IMG/VR virus record: IMGVR_UViG_3300031994_000025
Location: 64,001 to 128,000 of that record
DNA: 64,000 nucleotides
Direction: 5' to 3' (one strand)
Origin: a virus
Lineage: Duplodnaviria; Caudoviricetes
Made by a program: the position numbers and the translations under genes. Shown piece by piece: positions 5,933-13,588 of this stretch (position 1 is the first letter of the stretch; every line of letters starts with the position of its first letter). Below the pieces are notes generated by a model. The model did not search any database. It saw only the letters and a program-made list of their open reading frames with translations, and was not told where the DNA came from.

Positions 5933-6223
5933 ATGGACGTAGGACAGGCAATAAAAAACCTTCGGATGAAGCAGGGCATGTCGCAGGCGGCGCTGGCCGA
6001 GAAGTGCGGCATGAGCACCAACGGCGTGAACCTGCTGGAGACGGGCAAGCGGTTCCCGCGTAAGAGTACGGTGGAGAAACTGTGCCAGGTATTCGGCATA
6101 CCTCAGTCGTACCTGATGCTGGCGACGATTGAGGAGAGTGACATCCCAGAGGAGAAGCGCGTGCTGTATAGGGTTCTTGTTGAGCCCCTGCGCGACGAAC
6201 TGTTAGAGGCGGGCGAACTGTGA
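5933..6223 (+). CDS. XRE/Cro-family HTH regulator
   Basis: IKNLRMKQGMSQAALAEKCGMSTNGVNLLETG is a canonical HTH_3 pattern. Confidence 0.9.
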   Translation: MDVGQAIKNLRMKQGMSQAALAEKCGMSTNGVNLLETGKRFPRKSTVEKLCQVFGIPQSYLMLATIEESDIPEEKRVLYRVLVEPLRDELLEAGEL

Positions 6224-9200
6224 ACGACAATAATCTGAAGATATTAGACCAGATTCCACTCGTGGACGTACTGGCAGGGTGGAGGCATACGGCGCAGCGG
6301 ACGAATGCGAAGGGCACCGTGGCCTACTACCTGTGTCCGTGGCACGATGACCATGATCCGTCGCTGGTGGTGGAGAGTAAGACACGCGACGGTGCGACGG
6401 CACCGATGTTCAAGTGCTACGTCTGCGGAGCCACGGGCTACGGGGCGGTGCAGTTGGCGGCACGGCTGATGGGCAAGCCTGGCGGGAGGATTCCCGACGA
6501 GGAGATGCCGGAGGTGCTGACCGAACTGGCGACGCGCTGCAGCGTGGAACTGGAGGAAGAGACGGATGCCGAGGGCAGACGCTGGCAGACCAGACTGCGC
6601 TCGGAGATTACGGGATGGAGTGAGTTCCGCAAGACGGAACTGCAGTATGCCGACTGGGACGGCATCACGCCGATACTGGAGCCGGGCGAGTGGACCATCG
6701 AGAGTCTGAAAGCCCTGGGGCTGAAGGTGGAGATGTCGTCCCATAAGGCTGGGAAGGATGAAGTTTCTGCCACTGCCCCCGCCGAAATCAAGACAGGCGA
6801 CGTGATTACCGACTTCGACCCGGACACGGGCGAGGCGCTCTACCGCTGCTCGTTCGGGGCAGGCTTCTACGGCGACCCGAAGAAGGCGGAGGTGAAGACC
6901 GTCAGCGAGTGGGGTAGGGAGGTGGAGCGGCTGTTCCATGTGCAGCCAGTCGCCCGCGTCATCCGCCGCAAGGAGAACAAGGAGCAAGGCGGCTACTTCG
7001 TGCATATCACGAAGGGCAGCAGGACTTACCCCATCTTCATGTTCCAATACGACTTCGGTACAAAGAAGTACGAGCCGAGGGATGTCTACGGCAACAAGTG
7101 GATATGGGTGGGCAAGGACGAGAATGTGGACGCTGGCCACCAGTGGTACGGCGACGCGACGCTGGAGGACTTCCTGAAGGACGGCGTGATGCCCGAGCAG
7201 GACAAGCGTCACCCCTATGTGGAGATTGATGACAAGGAGAAGAAGACCAAGCAGATCCGATTCGGCAAGATTGTATTGTGCTCTGGTCCGAGGGATGCGA
7301 TAGCGGTCTATAGTCACAGCGACGCGCATGTGGTATGGCTCAACTCCGAACAGGCTGGCTTCGATGCCAAGGGCGGTGCGATGCGCCCCAACCGTTGGCT
7401 GCGTGCGCTGCTCCGCAAGTTGCAGAGCGTCTGCGTGGAGGGCGGTCTTTACGTCTGCTACGACGAGGACGAGACGGGGCTGAAGGCCAGCCAGGCCATT
7501 GCACTCAACAATCCGCAGGTGCATTGGCTCAGGCTGCCCAAGGAGTTGGGGCAGGTTATGGCCGGGAAGACGATACAGACCCCACCCCTGACCCCTCCCC
7601 TTGAGGGGCGGGGAATGCCTACGGACGGGGGCACAGCCGATTCGGGCTCCCTTGAGGGGCAGGGAATGCCTACGGACGTGGGCATAGCCGATTCGGGTTC
7701 CCTTGAGGGACGGGGAATACCTACGGACGTGGGCACAGCCGATTCGGGTTCCCTTGAGGGACGTGGAATGCCTACGGACGGGGGCACAGCCGATTCGGGT
7801 TCCCTTGAGGGACAGGGAATGCCTACGGACGGGGGCACAGTCGATTCGGGTTCCCTTGAGGGACGGGGAATGCCTACGGATACCATGGCGGCAGCAACTC
7901 CCCGCCCCTTTGAGGGGAGGGGCAGGGGTGGGGTAAAGGCCCCGAAACCCCTGAAAGACGCCACCGACTTCGTGACCCGTTTTGCCGAGGTGGAGCGGCT
8001 GATGCCCGCCGACCTGCAGCACGACGACCCGGCGGAGTGGTTCGAGAATGCCATGTTCGATACGCCGACGTGTAAGTTCTGGCAGTGGGAGTCAGAGCGC
8101 AAGGAACAGGACGGCAGCAGCCGGGCCCGCTATAAGTTCGACCTGCGAAATACCCCCGTGTTCCTCCGTGCCCGTGGCATCGTCCGCCGCGTCATGCAGT
8201 CGGGCGACGAGTCGTTCAGCCGCTTCTTCATGCTGGGCAATGACCATACCTATTATGAACTGTTCGTCGGACAGAAAGGTTCCAACAAACTGGTGCCGCA
8301 GATTCGCGACATCATGGCCGAATGGCTCCGTGCTCACTCGGAGTTCAACGATAAGAAGGGTGCGCTCTCGCGTGCCATCTACTCCGCCAAACTGGAGACC
8401 GGCATCATGGAGTCGATAGAGACGATGGACTTCGACGAGAAATCGTTCGGCGAGGACTTCGACCATTTCTTCTTCCATAACACCGCCGTCCGTGTGACGA
8501 AGGACGAAATCAAACTGGTGCCTTACTCCACGATGAAACAGTGGACCAACCAGGACGCCATCCTCGAAGGCGACTTCCACATCACCGACCGACTGTGGCA
8601 CGTGGAGGAAATGCCATACTACCAGGCCGAACTGGCGAAGCACGAGGCGATACTCAAAGCGGCGCAGGTGGAAGACGAGATCAAACAGGAGAACATGCGC
8701 TGGGACCAGTACGAGCAGTTGTGGCACTACCGCCTCGTGATGGATCGACCGCTGGAGCAGATGCCGCTGCACTTCCGCTTCCTGTATAACACCTGCCGCA
8801 TCTTCTGGGAGAAGGAGAAAACACAGGAACTCACCAAGACCGAACGGCAGGTACAGGACATGTACTTTATTGCGATGCTCCATGCCATCGGCTCGGCGCT
8901 GGTGCGCTTCCGCTCGGCTAACCGCCAGCAATTCATCCACATCACCGACAACGGAACGCGCCGTGAGGATCTGGCCTCGGGCGGCACGGGCAAGACCGCC
9001 ATATTGGAACTCTTCGCCCTCGTGCGCCGTGTGCTGGGCATCGACGGCAAGGCCCTTGAAGGGTCGAACATCATCCTGGAGCAGGAACTCGGAAAGGTCA
9101 TCCCCGGTCTGCACAACATCGCCTGCATCGACGAACTGCCGCAGGGCTTCTCGCCGAAGAAGCTCTACAACCTGCCGCTCAGCGTCACCTCGCGAGGCAT

Positions 9201-10035
9201 GTACCGCGCCTCAGTGAAACTGACGGGCGACGACGTGCCGAAAATCGTCATCTCCTCGAACGAGCAGATAGACCTCTCCAGCGAATCGACCTCGCGCCGC
9301 GCCTATCAGATACTGGTGGGCGACTGGTACCATCCCCGCTCGATGGACGGTTCGCGGCCTGCCCACACGCCAGCCGACGATTTCCGCAGCGAGGGCGTGA
9401 AGGAGATAGCCCACAACCTGCCGCCGCAGATTCTGAACGACGCGAGAAATCTGCTGCTGCAGTGCTGTCAGTTGTTCCTGCAACTGCCGGAGGTGACGTT
9501 CACGCCGCCGCGTGACAGCCGAGCACTGCTGCGCCAGGCACTGGCAGCAAGCAAGGACGAGCAGTTCACGCGCTGGATAGCGGGCTATCTCTCCGACAAG
9601 CGCCACCTCGGCATCCCTATTGCCGAACGCGAACTGATCATCTCGCTGCTCGACTTCTGCGGCATTGAGGTCGGTGCGAAGACGCTGCTGTCGGGCCGCG
9701 CCCGCATCAAGAACAACCTCGACGAGTATCTGAGGACAAGTCCCTACGTGGCAAATCCCAACATTGTGATGCACTCTAATACGGATCATCAGTGCGGCTA
9801 CCGCCGCTGCGCCACCTGGCAGTACCCGATGAATCCCGACAAGACCATCAAGACCGACAAGGACGGCAACAGGCTCCCCCGCGAACTGGTGAAGAAGGCG
9901 CCGTACCTGAAGACCTACTACTTCTACCGCAAGGGGCAGGTGCCGTTCCACGACTTCGACCCTGCGCATATCGGAGACAAGGACTACGTGCAACCCGCAC
10001 CGGAGACAGACCCGGATGAAGTGAAAAGTGAATAA
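6220..10035 (+). CDS. DNA primase-helicase (CHC2 zinc finger, TOPRIM, P-loop NTPase)
   Basis: CPWHDDHDPS...CYVC zinc finger; CYDEDETG TOPRIM DxD; KDATD; Walker A SGGTGKT; Walker B-like IACIDE. Confidence 0.85.
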   Translation: MNDNNLKILDQIPLVDVLAGWRHTAQRTNAKGTVAYYLCPWHDDHDPSLVVESKTRDGATAPMFKCYVCGATGYGAVQLAARLMGKPGGRIPDEEMPEVLTELATRCSVELEEETDAEGRRWQTRLRSEITGWSEFRKTELQYADWDGITPILEPGEWTIESLKALGLKVEMSSHKAGKDEVSATAPAEIKTGDVITDFDPDTGEALYRCSFGAGFYGDPKKAEVKTVSEWGREVERLFHVQPVARVIRRKENKEQGGYFVHITKGSRTYPIFMFQYDFGTKKYEPRDVYGNKWIWVGKDENVDAGHQWYGDATLEDFLKDGVMPEQDKRHPYVEIDDKEKKTKQIRFGKIVLCSGPRDAIAVYSHSDAHVVWLNSEQAGFDAKGGAMRPNRWLRALLRKLQSVCVEGGLYVCYDEDETGLKASQAIALNNPQVHWLRLPKELGQVMAGKTIQTPPLTPPLEGRGMPTDGGTADSGSLEGQGMPTDVGIADSGSLEGRGIPTDVGTADSGSLEGRGMPTDGGTADSGSLEGQGMPTDGGTVDSGSLEGRGMPTDTMAAATPRPFEGRGRGGVKAPKPLKDATDFVTRFAEVERLMPADLQHDDPAEWFENAMFDTPTCKFWQWESERKEQDGSSRARYKFDLRNTPVFLRARGIVRRVMQSGDESFSRFFMLGNDHTYYELFVGQKGSNKLVPQIRDIMAEWLRAHSEFNDKKGALSRAIYSAKLETGIMESIETMDFDEKSFGEDFDHFFFHNTAVRVTKDEIKLVPYSTMKQWTNQDAILEGDFHITDRLWHVEEMPYYQAELAKHEAILKAAQVEDEIKQENMRWDQYEQLWHYRLVMDRPLEQMPLHFRFLYNTCRIFWEKEKTQELTKTERQVQDMYFIAMLHAIGSALVRFRSANRQQFIHITDNGTRREDLASGGTGKTAILELFALVRRVLGIDGKALEGSNIILEQELGKVIPGLHNIACIDELPQGFSPKKLYNLPLSVTSRGMYRASVKLTGDDVPKIVISSNEQIDLSSESTSRRAYQILVGDWYHPRSMDGSRPAHTPADDFRSEGVKEIAHNLPPQILNDARNLLLQCCQLFLQLPEVTFTPPRDSRALLRQALAASKDEQFTRWIAGYLSDKRHLGIPIAERELIISLLDFCGIEVGAKTLLSGRARIKNNLDEYLRTSPYVANPNIVMHSNTDHQCGYRRCATWQYPMNPDKTIKTDKDGNRLPRELVKKAPYLKTYYFYRKGQVPFHDFDPAHIGDKDYVQPAPETDPDEVKSE
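7579..7934. repeat. palindromic MITE/REP-like element with an internal 51-bp tandem repeat, in frame in the primase
   Basis: ~36-bp imperfect inverted termini (7579-7614 and 7899-7934); CCCTTGAGGG recurs at 7598, 7649, 7700, 7751, 7802 and 7853. Confidence 0.9.
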
Positions 10036-10512: not shown

Positions 10513-10746
10513 ATGAGCAAGAACGACAATATCAAGACCCAAGGCCAGGTGACGGAATCCCTCGGCTACGAGCGCTACCGTGTGACGCTTGACAACGGCG
10601 TCACCATCCTCGCCACACTCTCGGGGCGCATCCGCCAGAATCACATCCGCGTGATGACCGGCGACCGCGTGGAGGTGGAACTCTCGCCCTACGACCTGAC
10701 CCACGGGCGCATCTCATTCAGATACAACAAACCCAAACAACAGTAA
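10513..10746 (+). CDS. infA: translation initiation factor IF-1
   Basis: GQVTESL...YRVTLDNG...LATLSGRIRQNHIRVMTGDRVEVELSPYDLTHGRISFRY is the IF-1 signature. Confidence 0.95.
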   Translation: MSKNDNIKTQGQVTESLGYERYRVTLDNGVTILATLSGRIRQNHIRVMTGDRVEVELSPYDLTHGRISFRYNKPKQQ

Positions 10747-10925: not shown

Positions 10926-11525
10926 ATGCAAGGCATTAAATTCAAGATGACGGGTGTGTGTCCGCTGATGCTGAACAACCCGCAGACGGTGAACCCGATG
11001 AACGAGTATTCAAAGGCGCTGAAGGAGCTGACCTCGAAGCGCTCGAAGACCGATGACGACCAGAACGAGATCTTCCACCTGAAGTTCCTGGCATCGTGCT
11101 ACTACAACACGAAGGGGCAGTACATCCTGCCGGCCAACATGATTGCCAAGAGCTTCGAGGCGGGGGCAAAGGAGAACAAGCTGGGTGCCAAGTTCCAGCG
11201 CTCGGTGTTCGTCTTCAACGACGGCGTGCTGAAGTTCGCAGAGAACGGTTGCTCGCCAGAGGAGCTGTGGACGAACCACAGCGAGAAGTACGTTGACATC
11301 CGGCCCGTGGGCATCATGAAGTCGAAGATTGTCACCGCCCGAATGATCATCCCCGAGTGGAGCCTGGAGGGTGAGCTTTTCTTCGACGAGAGCCAGTTGA
11401 ACAAGAGCGATGTGTGGCTGGCCATGACCAACGCCGGCCTGCGCTACGGCATCGGCACCTACCGCCAGTGCTACGGACGCTACAACATCGAAGAGGTGAA
11501 AGACGATGGGAAGAAAAGGAAATAA
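10926..11525 (+). CDS. stand-alone Cas7/RAMP-like protein (candidate effector of an RNA-guided system)
   Basis: N-terminal strand IKFKMTGVCPLML, YILPANMIAKSF (resembles the RAMP 'IPgssiKG' motif), C-terminal Gly-rich loop GLRYGIGTYRQCYGRYNI; no other cas genes nearby. Confidence 0.7.
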   Translation: MQGIKFKMTGVCPLMLNNPQTVNPMNEYSKALKELTSKRSKTDDDQNEIFHLKFLASCYYNTKGQYILPANMIAKSFEAGAKENKLGAKFQRSVFVFNDGVLKFAENGCSPEELWTNHSEKYVDIRPVGIMKSKIVTARMIIPEWSLEGELFFDESQLNKSDVWLAMTNAGLRYGIGTYRQCYGRYNIEEVKDDGKKRK

Positions 11526-11530
11526 CAACA

Positions 11531-11788
11531 TATCAAAGTACTGTCAAGTGCAGTGGGGTTTAGCTTAGCGCGGAACAGTACAGCGAAGACTGGTTTAGCG
11601 AAGCAAAGCAAAGTTTTATCCTAATCGAGCTTAATTCAGCCAAGAAGTGCGGAGTAAAGCCTTGTATAGCGCAGAGCAGCTTAGTAAAGCATAGCACGGT
11701 TACATCCCGACGTGGCAAAGCGGAGCGAAGCATACTAATGTATAGTTAGGCCCAGATGAGAGCGGTTGAGCGAAGCATAGTAAATTTT
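11531..11788 (+). ncRNA. array of three 86-nt units of 5-nt-periodic (A/G)G(C/T)-NN motifs (candidate guide RNAs)
   Basis: YATC linkers at 11531, 11617 and 11703, exactly 86 nt apart. Unit 1 has G at every 5th base from 11538 to 11613 (16/16). The pattern is seen directly; the RNA function is inferred. Confidence 0.75.
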
Positions 11789-11805
11789 AAAAACATAGAC
11801 AGATT

Positions 11806-12030
11806 ATGACAAGAAAGAAGATCGATTACCCGAACCCCGTCGAGACCATCGACCGCAAGCCGCCGCAGGTGGCGCTCACCGAGCCCGTAGAGCCCGACAA
11901 GTTCGACCGACACATGCGCAAGGCCCGCCGCGACGACATCAGTTCGCGCCGCAAGGTCTTCGTCAGCCAGAGCCGCGCCGAGGACGAGCGCGACAGCCGC
12001 CGGCAGGACATCAGCCCGTCGGTTTATTAA
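11806..12030 (+). CDS. small basic hypothetical protein
   Basis: 74-aa ORF after an AT-rich leader. Confidence 0.6.
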   Translation: MTRKKIDYPNPVETIDRKPPQVALTEPVEPDKFDRHMRKARRDDISSRRKVFVSQSRAEDERDSRRQDISPSVY

Positions 12031-12130
12031 ACACGGCGGTAGCCGCTCGGCATCCCGAAGGGTGACGCTTGCTACCAACGGGACGCAAGAAATTATTCAC
12101 TATTCACTTTTCACTATTCACTTAGAAAGT

Positions 12131-13345: not shown

Positions 13346-13588
13346 ATGGAAAGAACAGACATTGAGAAAAAAGTGCAGGACATCCTCGTTGACAAGCTCG
13401 GCTTGGATGCCAGCGAAGTGAAACCGGAGGCAAACCTGAAGGACGATCTCGGAGCCGACTCGCTCGACGAGGCGGAATTGATCATGGAGACGGAGAAGGA
13501 GTTCGGCATCGGCATCACCGACGACGAAGCCGAGCAGGTGAAGACCGTCGCCGACCTCTGCGACCTCGTGGAGCGGAAGGTAGGATAA
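13346..13588 (+). CDS. acpP: acyl carrier protein
   Basis: Acidic 80-aa protein with DDLGADSLD phosphopantetheine motif and EKEFGIGITDDEAEQVKTVAD. Confidence 0.93.
   Translation: MERTDIEKKVQDILVDKLGLDASEVKPEANLKDDLGADSLDEAELIMETEKEFGIGITDDEAEQVKTVADLCDLVERKVG

What the first reader, a model, noticed from the sequence alone, without database searches (positions are those of the whole stretch)
10926..11788. Stand-alone Cas7/RAMP-like gene plus an array of 5-nt-periodic units: candidate phage RNA-guided system with a gapped dinucleotide code
Seen: 5 nt after the stop codon of a 199-aa gene, three units begin with YATC linkers at 11531, 11617 and 11703, exactly 86 nt apart. Each is a chain of pentamers, a semi-constant triplet plus a variable dinucleotide. 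Unit 1: AGTac TGTca AGTgc AGTgg GGTtt AGCtt AGCgc GGAac AGTac AGCga AGAct GGTtt AGCga AGCaa AGCaa AGTtt. Unit 2: AATcg AGCtt AATtc AGCca AGAag TGCgg AGTaa AGCct TGTat AGCgc AGAgc AGCtt AGTaa AGCat AGCac GGTta. Unit 3: GACgt GGCaa AGCgg AGCga AGCat ACTaa TGTat AGTta GGCcc AGAtg AGAgc GGTtg AGCga AGCat AGTaa. The dinucleotides differ freely between units while the register is held, which fits information storage better than slippage. The protein has RAMP/Cas7-like marks (N-terminal G-x-x-PL, 'ILPANMI', C-terminal GIGTYRQCYGRY loop). Established: Cas7-family RAMPs polymerise along guide RNA with a fixed nucleotide period. Inference: one protomer binds each triplet and displays the NN for target pairing, so each unit is a guide; with no nuclease or cas1/2 nearby, binding or repression is more likely than cutting, possibly against competing phages. 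From memory and unverified, this resembles the recently reported VIPR (GGY/NN) architecture; this copy would be an AGY-dominant Bacteroidota variant.
Basis: partly seen in the sequence, partly recalled or inferred. Interest (0 to 1): 0.95.

Follow-up and report, generated by a model that had tools for sequence, protein, structure and literature searches.

The report
Rumen phage VIPR with AGY guides
A rumen phage of Prevotella-like bacteria carries a VIPR system (a CRISPR-related, RNA-guided DNA silencer first described in 2026) with a variant guide format, and one of its three guides spells out a conserved gene of small islands in Prevotella chromosomes, which the phage probably switches off.

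Summary
Observation confirmed. It is a VIPR system, a class already published and already seen by this scan in about 294 other genomes. The 199-aa protein matches SUSP1 Vipr (PDB 36PP) over its full length, E 1.7e-28. The three units are AGY/NN guides. Read by the published 1-nt-skip rule, unit 3 matches 25/26 bases, skips on wobble positions, in a 148-aa orphan gene. That gene heads the core operon of Prevotella chromosomal islands (HU-HIG, restriction cargo, DUF3987 primase/helicase-like, DUF5675). Six sister guides from related phages hit the same site, also outside the search pattern. Units 1 and 2 have no target yet. Two rival phages' guides match this phage's vipr (20/22) but spare their own (15/22). 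Binding and silencing are inferred from SUSP1, not shown. Whether the islands are satellites is unproven. New variant of a known kind.

The parts
10926..11525 (+). vipr gene, 199 aa RAMP (RRM, thumb, G-loop); keeps K33, R39, K82, R139 and R180 of SUSP1 Vipr; the G1-reading H17/D177 are N17/T178
   Evidence: PDB 36PP E 1.7e-28, residues 4-193; phrog_4652 E 3e-42; model pLDDT 93, Foldseek top hits Cmr/Csm RAMPs
11537..11616 (+). vrRNA unit 1, 16 pentamers, target not found
   Evidence: negative searches
11617..11622 (+). 6-nt linker (YATCCN) that shifts the register by one base; followed by an AAY-NN first pentamer
11623..11702 (+). vrRNA unit 2, 16 pentamers, target not found
   Evidence: negative searches
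11703..11708 (+). second 6-nt linker
11709..11783 (+). vrRNA unit 3, 15 pentamers; matches the early codons of a 148-aa gene of Prevotella islands by the 1-nt-skip rule, 25/26
11806..12030 (+). 74-aa basic ORF (62 aa in relatives), candidate accessory (vap) gene of unknown family, not Vap1
   Evidence: present after the array in all 18 related loci of the clade while flanks are unrelated; no match to Vap1-like profile; no family hit
11397..11429 (+). site in vipr matched 20/22 by the first guides of two related phages (L016, L017), whose own vipr matches only 15/22
11469..11507 (+). site at the 3' end of vipr matched 20/26 by the first guide of L012 (other relatives up to 23/26, own gene 19/26); weak for this phage

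Best explanation
A VIPR module (vipr, guide array, small accessory ORF) in the early/replication region of a 140-kb rumen Bacteroidales phage. The array is transcribed with vipr. Vipr coats each 15-16-pentamer unit, one protomer per repeat, burying the AGY triplets and showing the NN pairs; the out-of-register linkers stop the filament and mark where units are cut apart (inferred). Each guide pairs with the template strand of double-stranded DNA, skipping every third base, which falls on codon wobble positions, and blocks transcription without cutting (inferred from SUSP1). Unit 3 is aimed about 25 codons into the first gene of the operon ORF148 - DUF3987 primase/helicase-like - DUF5675 of small islands in Prevotella chromosomes, so binding should silence the island's replication operon while the phage infects. 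Asn at position 17 in place of His most likely fits the pocket to A instead of G. Shown here: protein identity, array grammar, target match, clade-wide skip rule, accessory swap. Inferred: processing, binding, repression, benefit to the phage. Odds: VIPR member 0.97; unit 3 target real 0.9; silencing of a parasitic or competing island is the purpose 0.6.
For: Protein. Arrays beside nearly every homolog with enough flank. Target: all 58 metagenome hits of a 20-base gapped pattern fall in one gene family, sense strand, wobble-aligned, mostly in contigs whose accessions I recognise as rumen; unit 3 scores 25/26 with skip 1, 18 with skip 0, 2 or 3, shuffles at most 19; the window's own pattern hits 12 of 151 genomes of the genus of a Prevotella MAG against 0 for the reversed control, 11 at this site; sister guides match outside the scan pattern 12/14, 11/14, 7/8, 7/8, 6/6, 10/14. 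Family-wide: 30 of 155 guides have matches at E<0.01 with skip 1, against 1 with skip 0 and 0 with skip 2, including AGT-rich guides at 30-31/32 in loci fetched by protein homology. No self target. NN usage follows sense codon prefixes, r 0.60. Island anatomy; a second island gene (DUF3127-like) is hit 19/20 by guide L011_2. N17 lineages have A1 fraction 0.49-1.0, H17 lineages 0-0.41. 100%-identical RNA-library contigs cover vipr, array and small ORF in one sheep gut sample (weak).
Against: Two of three guides have no target. No island copy matches unit 3 perfectly (first dinucleotide differs); most match 21-24/26. A conserved gene family can collect chance hits from a short pattern (T4-like portal), though that one did not extend. 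No integrase, att repeat or phage structural gene was found on the islands, so satellite status is not shown. Vap1, needed for SUSP1's anti-satellite effect (10.64898/2026.10.15.759431), is absent. The His/Asn link rests on 3 changes, and L075 (His17) uses TGT/AGT. RNA evidence is low-depth contigs from one sample and may be DNA.
Confidence: 0.8

Rival explanations
1. Same VIPR chemistry, but the purpose is anti-defence or host control: the islands are immobile defence islands and the phage silences them (or a defence function of ORF148) rather than blocking a satellite.
For: Islands carry type III RM, BsuBI/PstI, C5 methylase and GmrSD genes; no recombinase or att site found; HU-HIG proteins were proposed to act in conflicts with invasive DNA (PMC5499826).
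Against: The guide lies downstream of the cargo genes, at the head of the primase-like operon, so it would not silence the RM cargo; DUF3987 is a replication module of mobile elements and of PICMI satellites (PMC5862659, PMC10803314); the islands sit at many different chromosomal sites.
Confidence: 0.25
2. A real but partly decayed or recently imported VIPR cassette: the guides reflect the history of other phages and do little in this one.
For: The cassette moves between unrelated phages; only 3 units against 3-10 in relatives; units 1 and 2 have no target; the small ORF has a divergent N-terminus.
Against: Intact ORF with key residues kept; unit 3 is among the best-matching guides of its family; RNA-library cover.
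Confidence: 0.1
3. Not RNA-guided: a degenerate pentanucleotide satellite or protein-binding array next to a stray RAMP gene.
For: No bench data for this clade.
Against: Homology to SUSP1 Vipr, skip-1-specific matches to genes, self-sparing.
Confidence: 0.02

Closest known systems
Type II VIPR of Escherichia phage SUSP1 and the Pseudomonas fulva prophage (bioRxiv 10.64898/2026.04.26.720920, .720927, 10.64898/2026.10.15.759431; PDB 36PP)
   Same: Homologous Vipr (about 31% identity to Felixounavirus copies; E 1.7e-28 to 36PP); pentamer guides; 1-nt skip on wobble positions; no self target; aim at a host-integrated element; rival guides against vipr with self-sparing.
   Different: AGY not GGY; N17/T178/Y179 for H17/D177/W178; no 40-nt pseudoknot tail, only two constant pentamers and a 6-nt linker; no Vap1, a 62-74-aa ORF instead; target is an orphan gene before a primase-like gene, not a recombinase; Bacteroidota host.
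VIPR with alternative repeats (YNNNG/NNNNG) and 'staggered' arrays (720920 methods, figs S17-S18); WGT/NN, TGH/NN, GAC/NN, CAC/NN arrays (bioRxiv 10.64898/2026.10.21.760802)
   Same: Non-GGY triplets; back-to-back units with a register shift.
   Different: The texts do not mention AGY in Bacteroidota, the residue-17 link or this accessory ORF; figures and tables could not be seen, so overlap with a published type is not excluded.
Other Bacteroidota Vipr clades found here (L018-L087)
   Same: 45-58% identical Vipr, mostly N17 with AGT-rich guides, skip-1 targets at 28/30-31/32.
   Different: They keep a Vap1-like gene (29% identical to the wV8 gene beside vipr) and long gaps between units.
Class 1 CRISPR backbone RAMPs (Cas7/Csm3/Cmr4)
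   Same: Fold (Foldseek E 2e-6, TM up to 0.57); filament on guide RNA.
   Different: 8-16% identity; no repeat-spacer array, no neighbouring cas genes; gapped code.
PICMI/PICI-type phage satellites (for the target island; PMC10803314)
   Same: Small integrated island with a DUF3987-type primase/helicase and defence cargo.
   Different: No integrase, AlpA or att repeats found; has HU-HIG, DUF5675 and an orphan 148-aa gene.

Membership tests
VIPR | Vipr: minimal RAMP with RRM, thumb and G-loop, homologous to characterised Vipr | tested here: met
VIPR | Residues needed for silencing in SUSP1 (K33, R39, K82, R138) kept | tested here: met
   K33, R39, K82, R139; D177 is T178
VIPR | Minimal locus in a virus, no CRISPR array or cas genes beside it | tested here: met
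   complete IMG/VR virus record, tape measure; neighbours IF-1 and an exonuclease
VIPR | Guides of 9-16 pentamers, fixed triplet plus variable NN (GGY or related consensus such as YNNNG) | tested here: met
   15-16 pentamers, G2 43/47, Y3 41/47
VIPR | Targets read with a 1-nt skip, wobble-aligned, no self target | tested here: met
   unit 3 and clade; self; units 1 and 2 unresolved
VIPR | Guides expressed as small RNAs that co-purify with Vipr | tested here: inconclusive
   low-depth contigs of one metatranscriptome sample; ends and binding cannot be seen
VIPR | Programmable DNA binding and transcriptional repression | not testable with these tools
   bench assay needed
VIPR type II (SUSP1) | Canonical GGY triplet | tested here: not met
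   A at position 1 in 35/47; 0.76-0.94 across the clade
VIPR type II (SUSP1) | Vap1 gene next to vipr | tested here: not met
   Vap1-like HMM hits nearly all of L018-L087 but not the 140-kb genome, L001-L017 or L081; small ORF unrelated by HHalign. The Vap1 identity of the reference genes is inferred from synteny.
VIPR type II (SUSP1) | Structured 3' tail of about 40 nt with pseudoknot | tested here: not met
   only 6 nt between chains; no fold beyond shuffles
VIPR published types I, III-VII / staggered arrays | Type-specific phylogeny, vap gene and array layout | not testable with these tools
   definitions are in figures and data files not held
Class 1 CRISPR-Cas | Repeat-spacer array and multi-RAMP cas operon | tested here: not met
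Phage satellite (target island) | Integrase and att sites, helper-induced excision and packaging | tested here: inconclusive
   none found in the islands examined; primase/helicase-like DUF3987 present

The most novel reading that the evidence does not exclude
This clade is an undescribed VIPR type (tail-less AGY arrays cut at register-shifting linkers, a new small accessory protein in place of Vap1, scaffold specificity set by residue 17, so orthogonal to GGY systems), and its guides expose the integrase-less HU-HIG/DUF3987/DUF5675 islands of Prevotella as a large unrecognised family of phage satellites.
Probability: 0.3. Interest if true: 0.75.

Novelty: new variant of a known kind. Interest (0 to 1): 0.5.

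Why it matters
It extends VIPR's gapped code to rumen and gut Bacteroidota with sequence evidence that AGY guides obey the same skip rule. It gives three testable leads: a one-residue switch for guide scaffold specificity (useful for orthogonal programmable repressors), a compact tail-less multiplex array, and a function for a widespread unexplained Prevotella island family (at least 1,546 clusters of the target protein). The class, the skip rule, anti-satellite use and vipr-against-vipr guides are already published.

Tried and rejected
Pfam finds nothing for Vipr. Exact 18-20-base skip-1 scans of viral contigs: no hits. 16-base scans for units 1 and 2 gave only chance hits with no extension, including a misleading cluster in T4-like portal genes. 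Unit 1: 0 of 401 genomes; unit 2: 0 of 401 and 0 of 121; neither matches the islands, five rival phage records or the own genome. Skip 0, 2 and 3 rejected. The target protein has no Pfam, NCBIfam, PHROG or PDB sequence match; its model is poor (pLDDT 64) and the fold search is uninformative (best Z 4.0). The small ORF has no family or usable Atlas hit. No att repeats at island ends; no orphan guides on 487 kb of island DNA; no island core genes in the phage. No Rfam hit, no clear promoter or terminator. Complex prediction and the Atlas fold library were not available. The rank test ignores kinship and used hand-entered values, so it is not counted.

Full report
Observation. The periodicity is far beyond shuffles (lag 5: 0.44 against at most 0.36), the units share almost no dinucleotides, and the array is unique in the 140,421-bp genome. 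The genome is a complete IMG/VR virus record with a tape measure gene; its closest Vipr relatives come from IMG/VR contigs and Bacteroidales MAGs, and a sheep gut metatranscriptome holds the stretch.

Protein. It matches SUSP1 Vipr (PDB 36PP) over residues 4-193 at E 1.7e-28, the only significant PDB sequence hit. The model (pLDDT 93) finds Csm/Cmr RAMPs by fold. K33, R39, K82 and R138, whose mutation impairs silencing in SUSP1 (bioRxiv 10.64898/2026.04.26.720927), are kept. The two residues that read the first G of the triplet, H17 and D177, are N17 and T178. This settles VIPR membership on the protein side; VIPR itself is published (10.64898/2026.04.26.720920).

Array grammar. Seventeen relatives at 84-89% identity and one at 68% all carry arrays after vipr. 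A unit is a 6-nt linker, an AAY-NN pentamer, a run of mostly AGC/AGT-NN, and two near-constant closing pentamers. Linker spacing is 56-127 nt and 5n+1 in 50 of 55 cases, so 86 nt is just this copy's length. There is no structured tail, unlike SUSP1's pseudoknot. The layout recalls the published staggered arrays, whose figure I could not see. The register shift probably stops the filament between units and leaves a cut site; that is inference.

Third part. A 62-74-aa basic ORF (11806-12030) follows the array in all 19 loci of the clade, while the immediately flanking genes are unrelated between phages, so vipr-array-ORF is a mobile cassette. More distant Bacteroidota Viprs instead have a 153-157-aa gene homologous to the gene beside vipr in phage wV8, by synteny Vap1. 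The two accessory genes are mutually exclusive and unrelated, and the phage has no Vap1-like gene anywhere.

Target of unit 3. Several relatives share this guide family. A 20-base gapped consensus, one skip after each NN, gave 58 metagenome hits. All lie in one gene family, on the sense strand, with skips on wobble positions, about 25-27 codons after the start. The window's guide matches 25/26 at best; other skips give 18 and shuffles at most 19. Because that search was built from the guides, I checked independent evidence: the window's own pattern hits 12 of 151 genomes of a Prevotella MAG's genus, 11 at this site, against 0 for the reversed control, while equally long patterns from units 1 and 2 hit 0 of 401; six sister guides match 6/6 to 12/14 bases outside the scan pattern. 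The guide reads like the coding strand, so it pairs with the template strand.

The targeted element. The 148-aa gene has no known family but at least 1,546 sequence clusters. It overlaps and precedes a 740-850-aa DUF3987-type gene and a DUF5675 gene; an HU-HIG gene faces outward at the other end; variable cargo between them includes restriction-modification genes; the islands sit at many chromosomal sites. DUF3987 is a predicted replicative helicase of mobile elements and part of the PICMI satellite primase definition (PMC5862659, PMC10803314). No integrase or att repeat was found. A guide of L011 hits a second island gene 19/20. By analogy with SUSP1, which uses VIPR to hold a resident satellite in place (10.64898/2026.10.15.759431), the likeliest role is to silence the island's replication operon during infection. 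That the islands are satellites is not shown.

Family-wide test of the code. Of 155 guides from all fetched loci, 30 match at E<0.01 with skip 1, against 1 with skip 0 and none with skip 2. A few of these are the unit-3 family, whose target loci were fetched by pattern; most are not. AGT-rich guides reach 30-31/32 on genes of related elements and 20-22/32 on their own locus. So AGY guides follow the same rule as GGY guides.

Arms race. The first guides of L016 and L017 match this phage's vipr at 11397-11429 (20/22) and most relatives (20-21/22), but their own vipr only 15/22, because their proteins differ at that site; L012's first guide does the same at the 3' end. Anti-vipr guides and self-sparing are already reported for Enterobacteriaceae phages.

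Scaffold and residue 17. N17 lineages have A at triplet position 1 in 49-100% of repeats, H17 lineages in 0-41%, including a Bacteroides subclade with His and GGT despite T178. The tree needs three changes, and L075 (His17, TGT/AGT) fits poorly. With the structure this is a plausible, untested specificity switch. Non-GGY triplets as such are in print.

Expression. Contigs of one sheep gut RNA sample are 100% identical over most of vipr, 11590-11797 and the small ORF, with sparse cover on either side. Depth is 2-4, DNA carry-over is possible, and it may be the source sample: weak support only.

Verdict. Real, a VIPR system, not type II by three tested features, type otherwise unassignable. This scan has 447 earlier notes on VIPR arrays in at least 294 genomes, none on look-alike DNA of this clade in other genomes. 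New variant of a known kind; interest 0.5, carried by the decoded island target, the accessory swap and the residue-17 lead.

Noticed in passing
L022-L078 (e.g. L023:3658, L042:4620, L073:4766 against L036:6546, L029:7063, L022:7401): In gut Bacteroides-type prophages, guides match 28/30-31/32 the tape measure gene (Pfam TMP_3) and an upstream gene of sister elements, and spare their own copy: close relatives silencing each other.
   Followed up: partly
L010, L012, L017 arrays: Guides of the unit-3 family carry one 6-nt repeat (a bulge) yet stay in register with the target on both sides, so an extra base may be tolerated.
   Followed up: partly
arrays of window and L001-L017: Triplet variants depend on the neighbouring NN (chi-square p 1e-11 to 1e-14); may reflect how guides are made, RNA folding or shared ancestry.
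   Followed up: no
P0121-P0240: Most of the top homologs of the target protein have Val for Ile inside the guide footprint, a possible escape variant.
   Followed up: no
L082 and L087: The same Vipr locus occurs in a Bacteroidales MAG and a 'Bathyarchaeota' MAG; the latter is probably mis-binned.
   Followed up: no
L080:4580-4825: A 35%-identical Vipr with GGC-NN units separated by only 2 nt, plus arrays upstream.
   Followed up: no
window 12044-12124: Short intergenic motifs shared with many other contigs and abundant in the RNA library; probably host-type repeated elements.
   Followed up: no
window 10513-10746 and 13346-13588: The phage encodes translation factor IF-1 directly upstream of vipr and an acyl carrier protein downstream.
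   Followed up: no
G000 345-1193 and 139334-140182 (outside the window): Near-identical gene starts at both ends of the record suggest terminal redundancy although it is classed linear.
   Followed up: no
window 6220-10035: 1271-aa primase-like ORF with a low-complexity repeat insert near 7600-7900 and no relative among 50,697 annotated phages.
   Followed up: no
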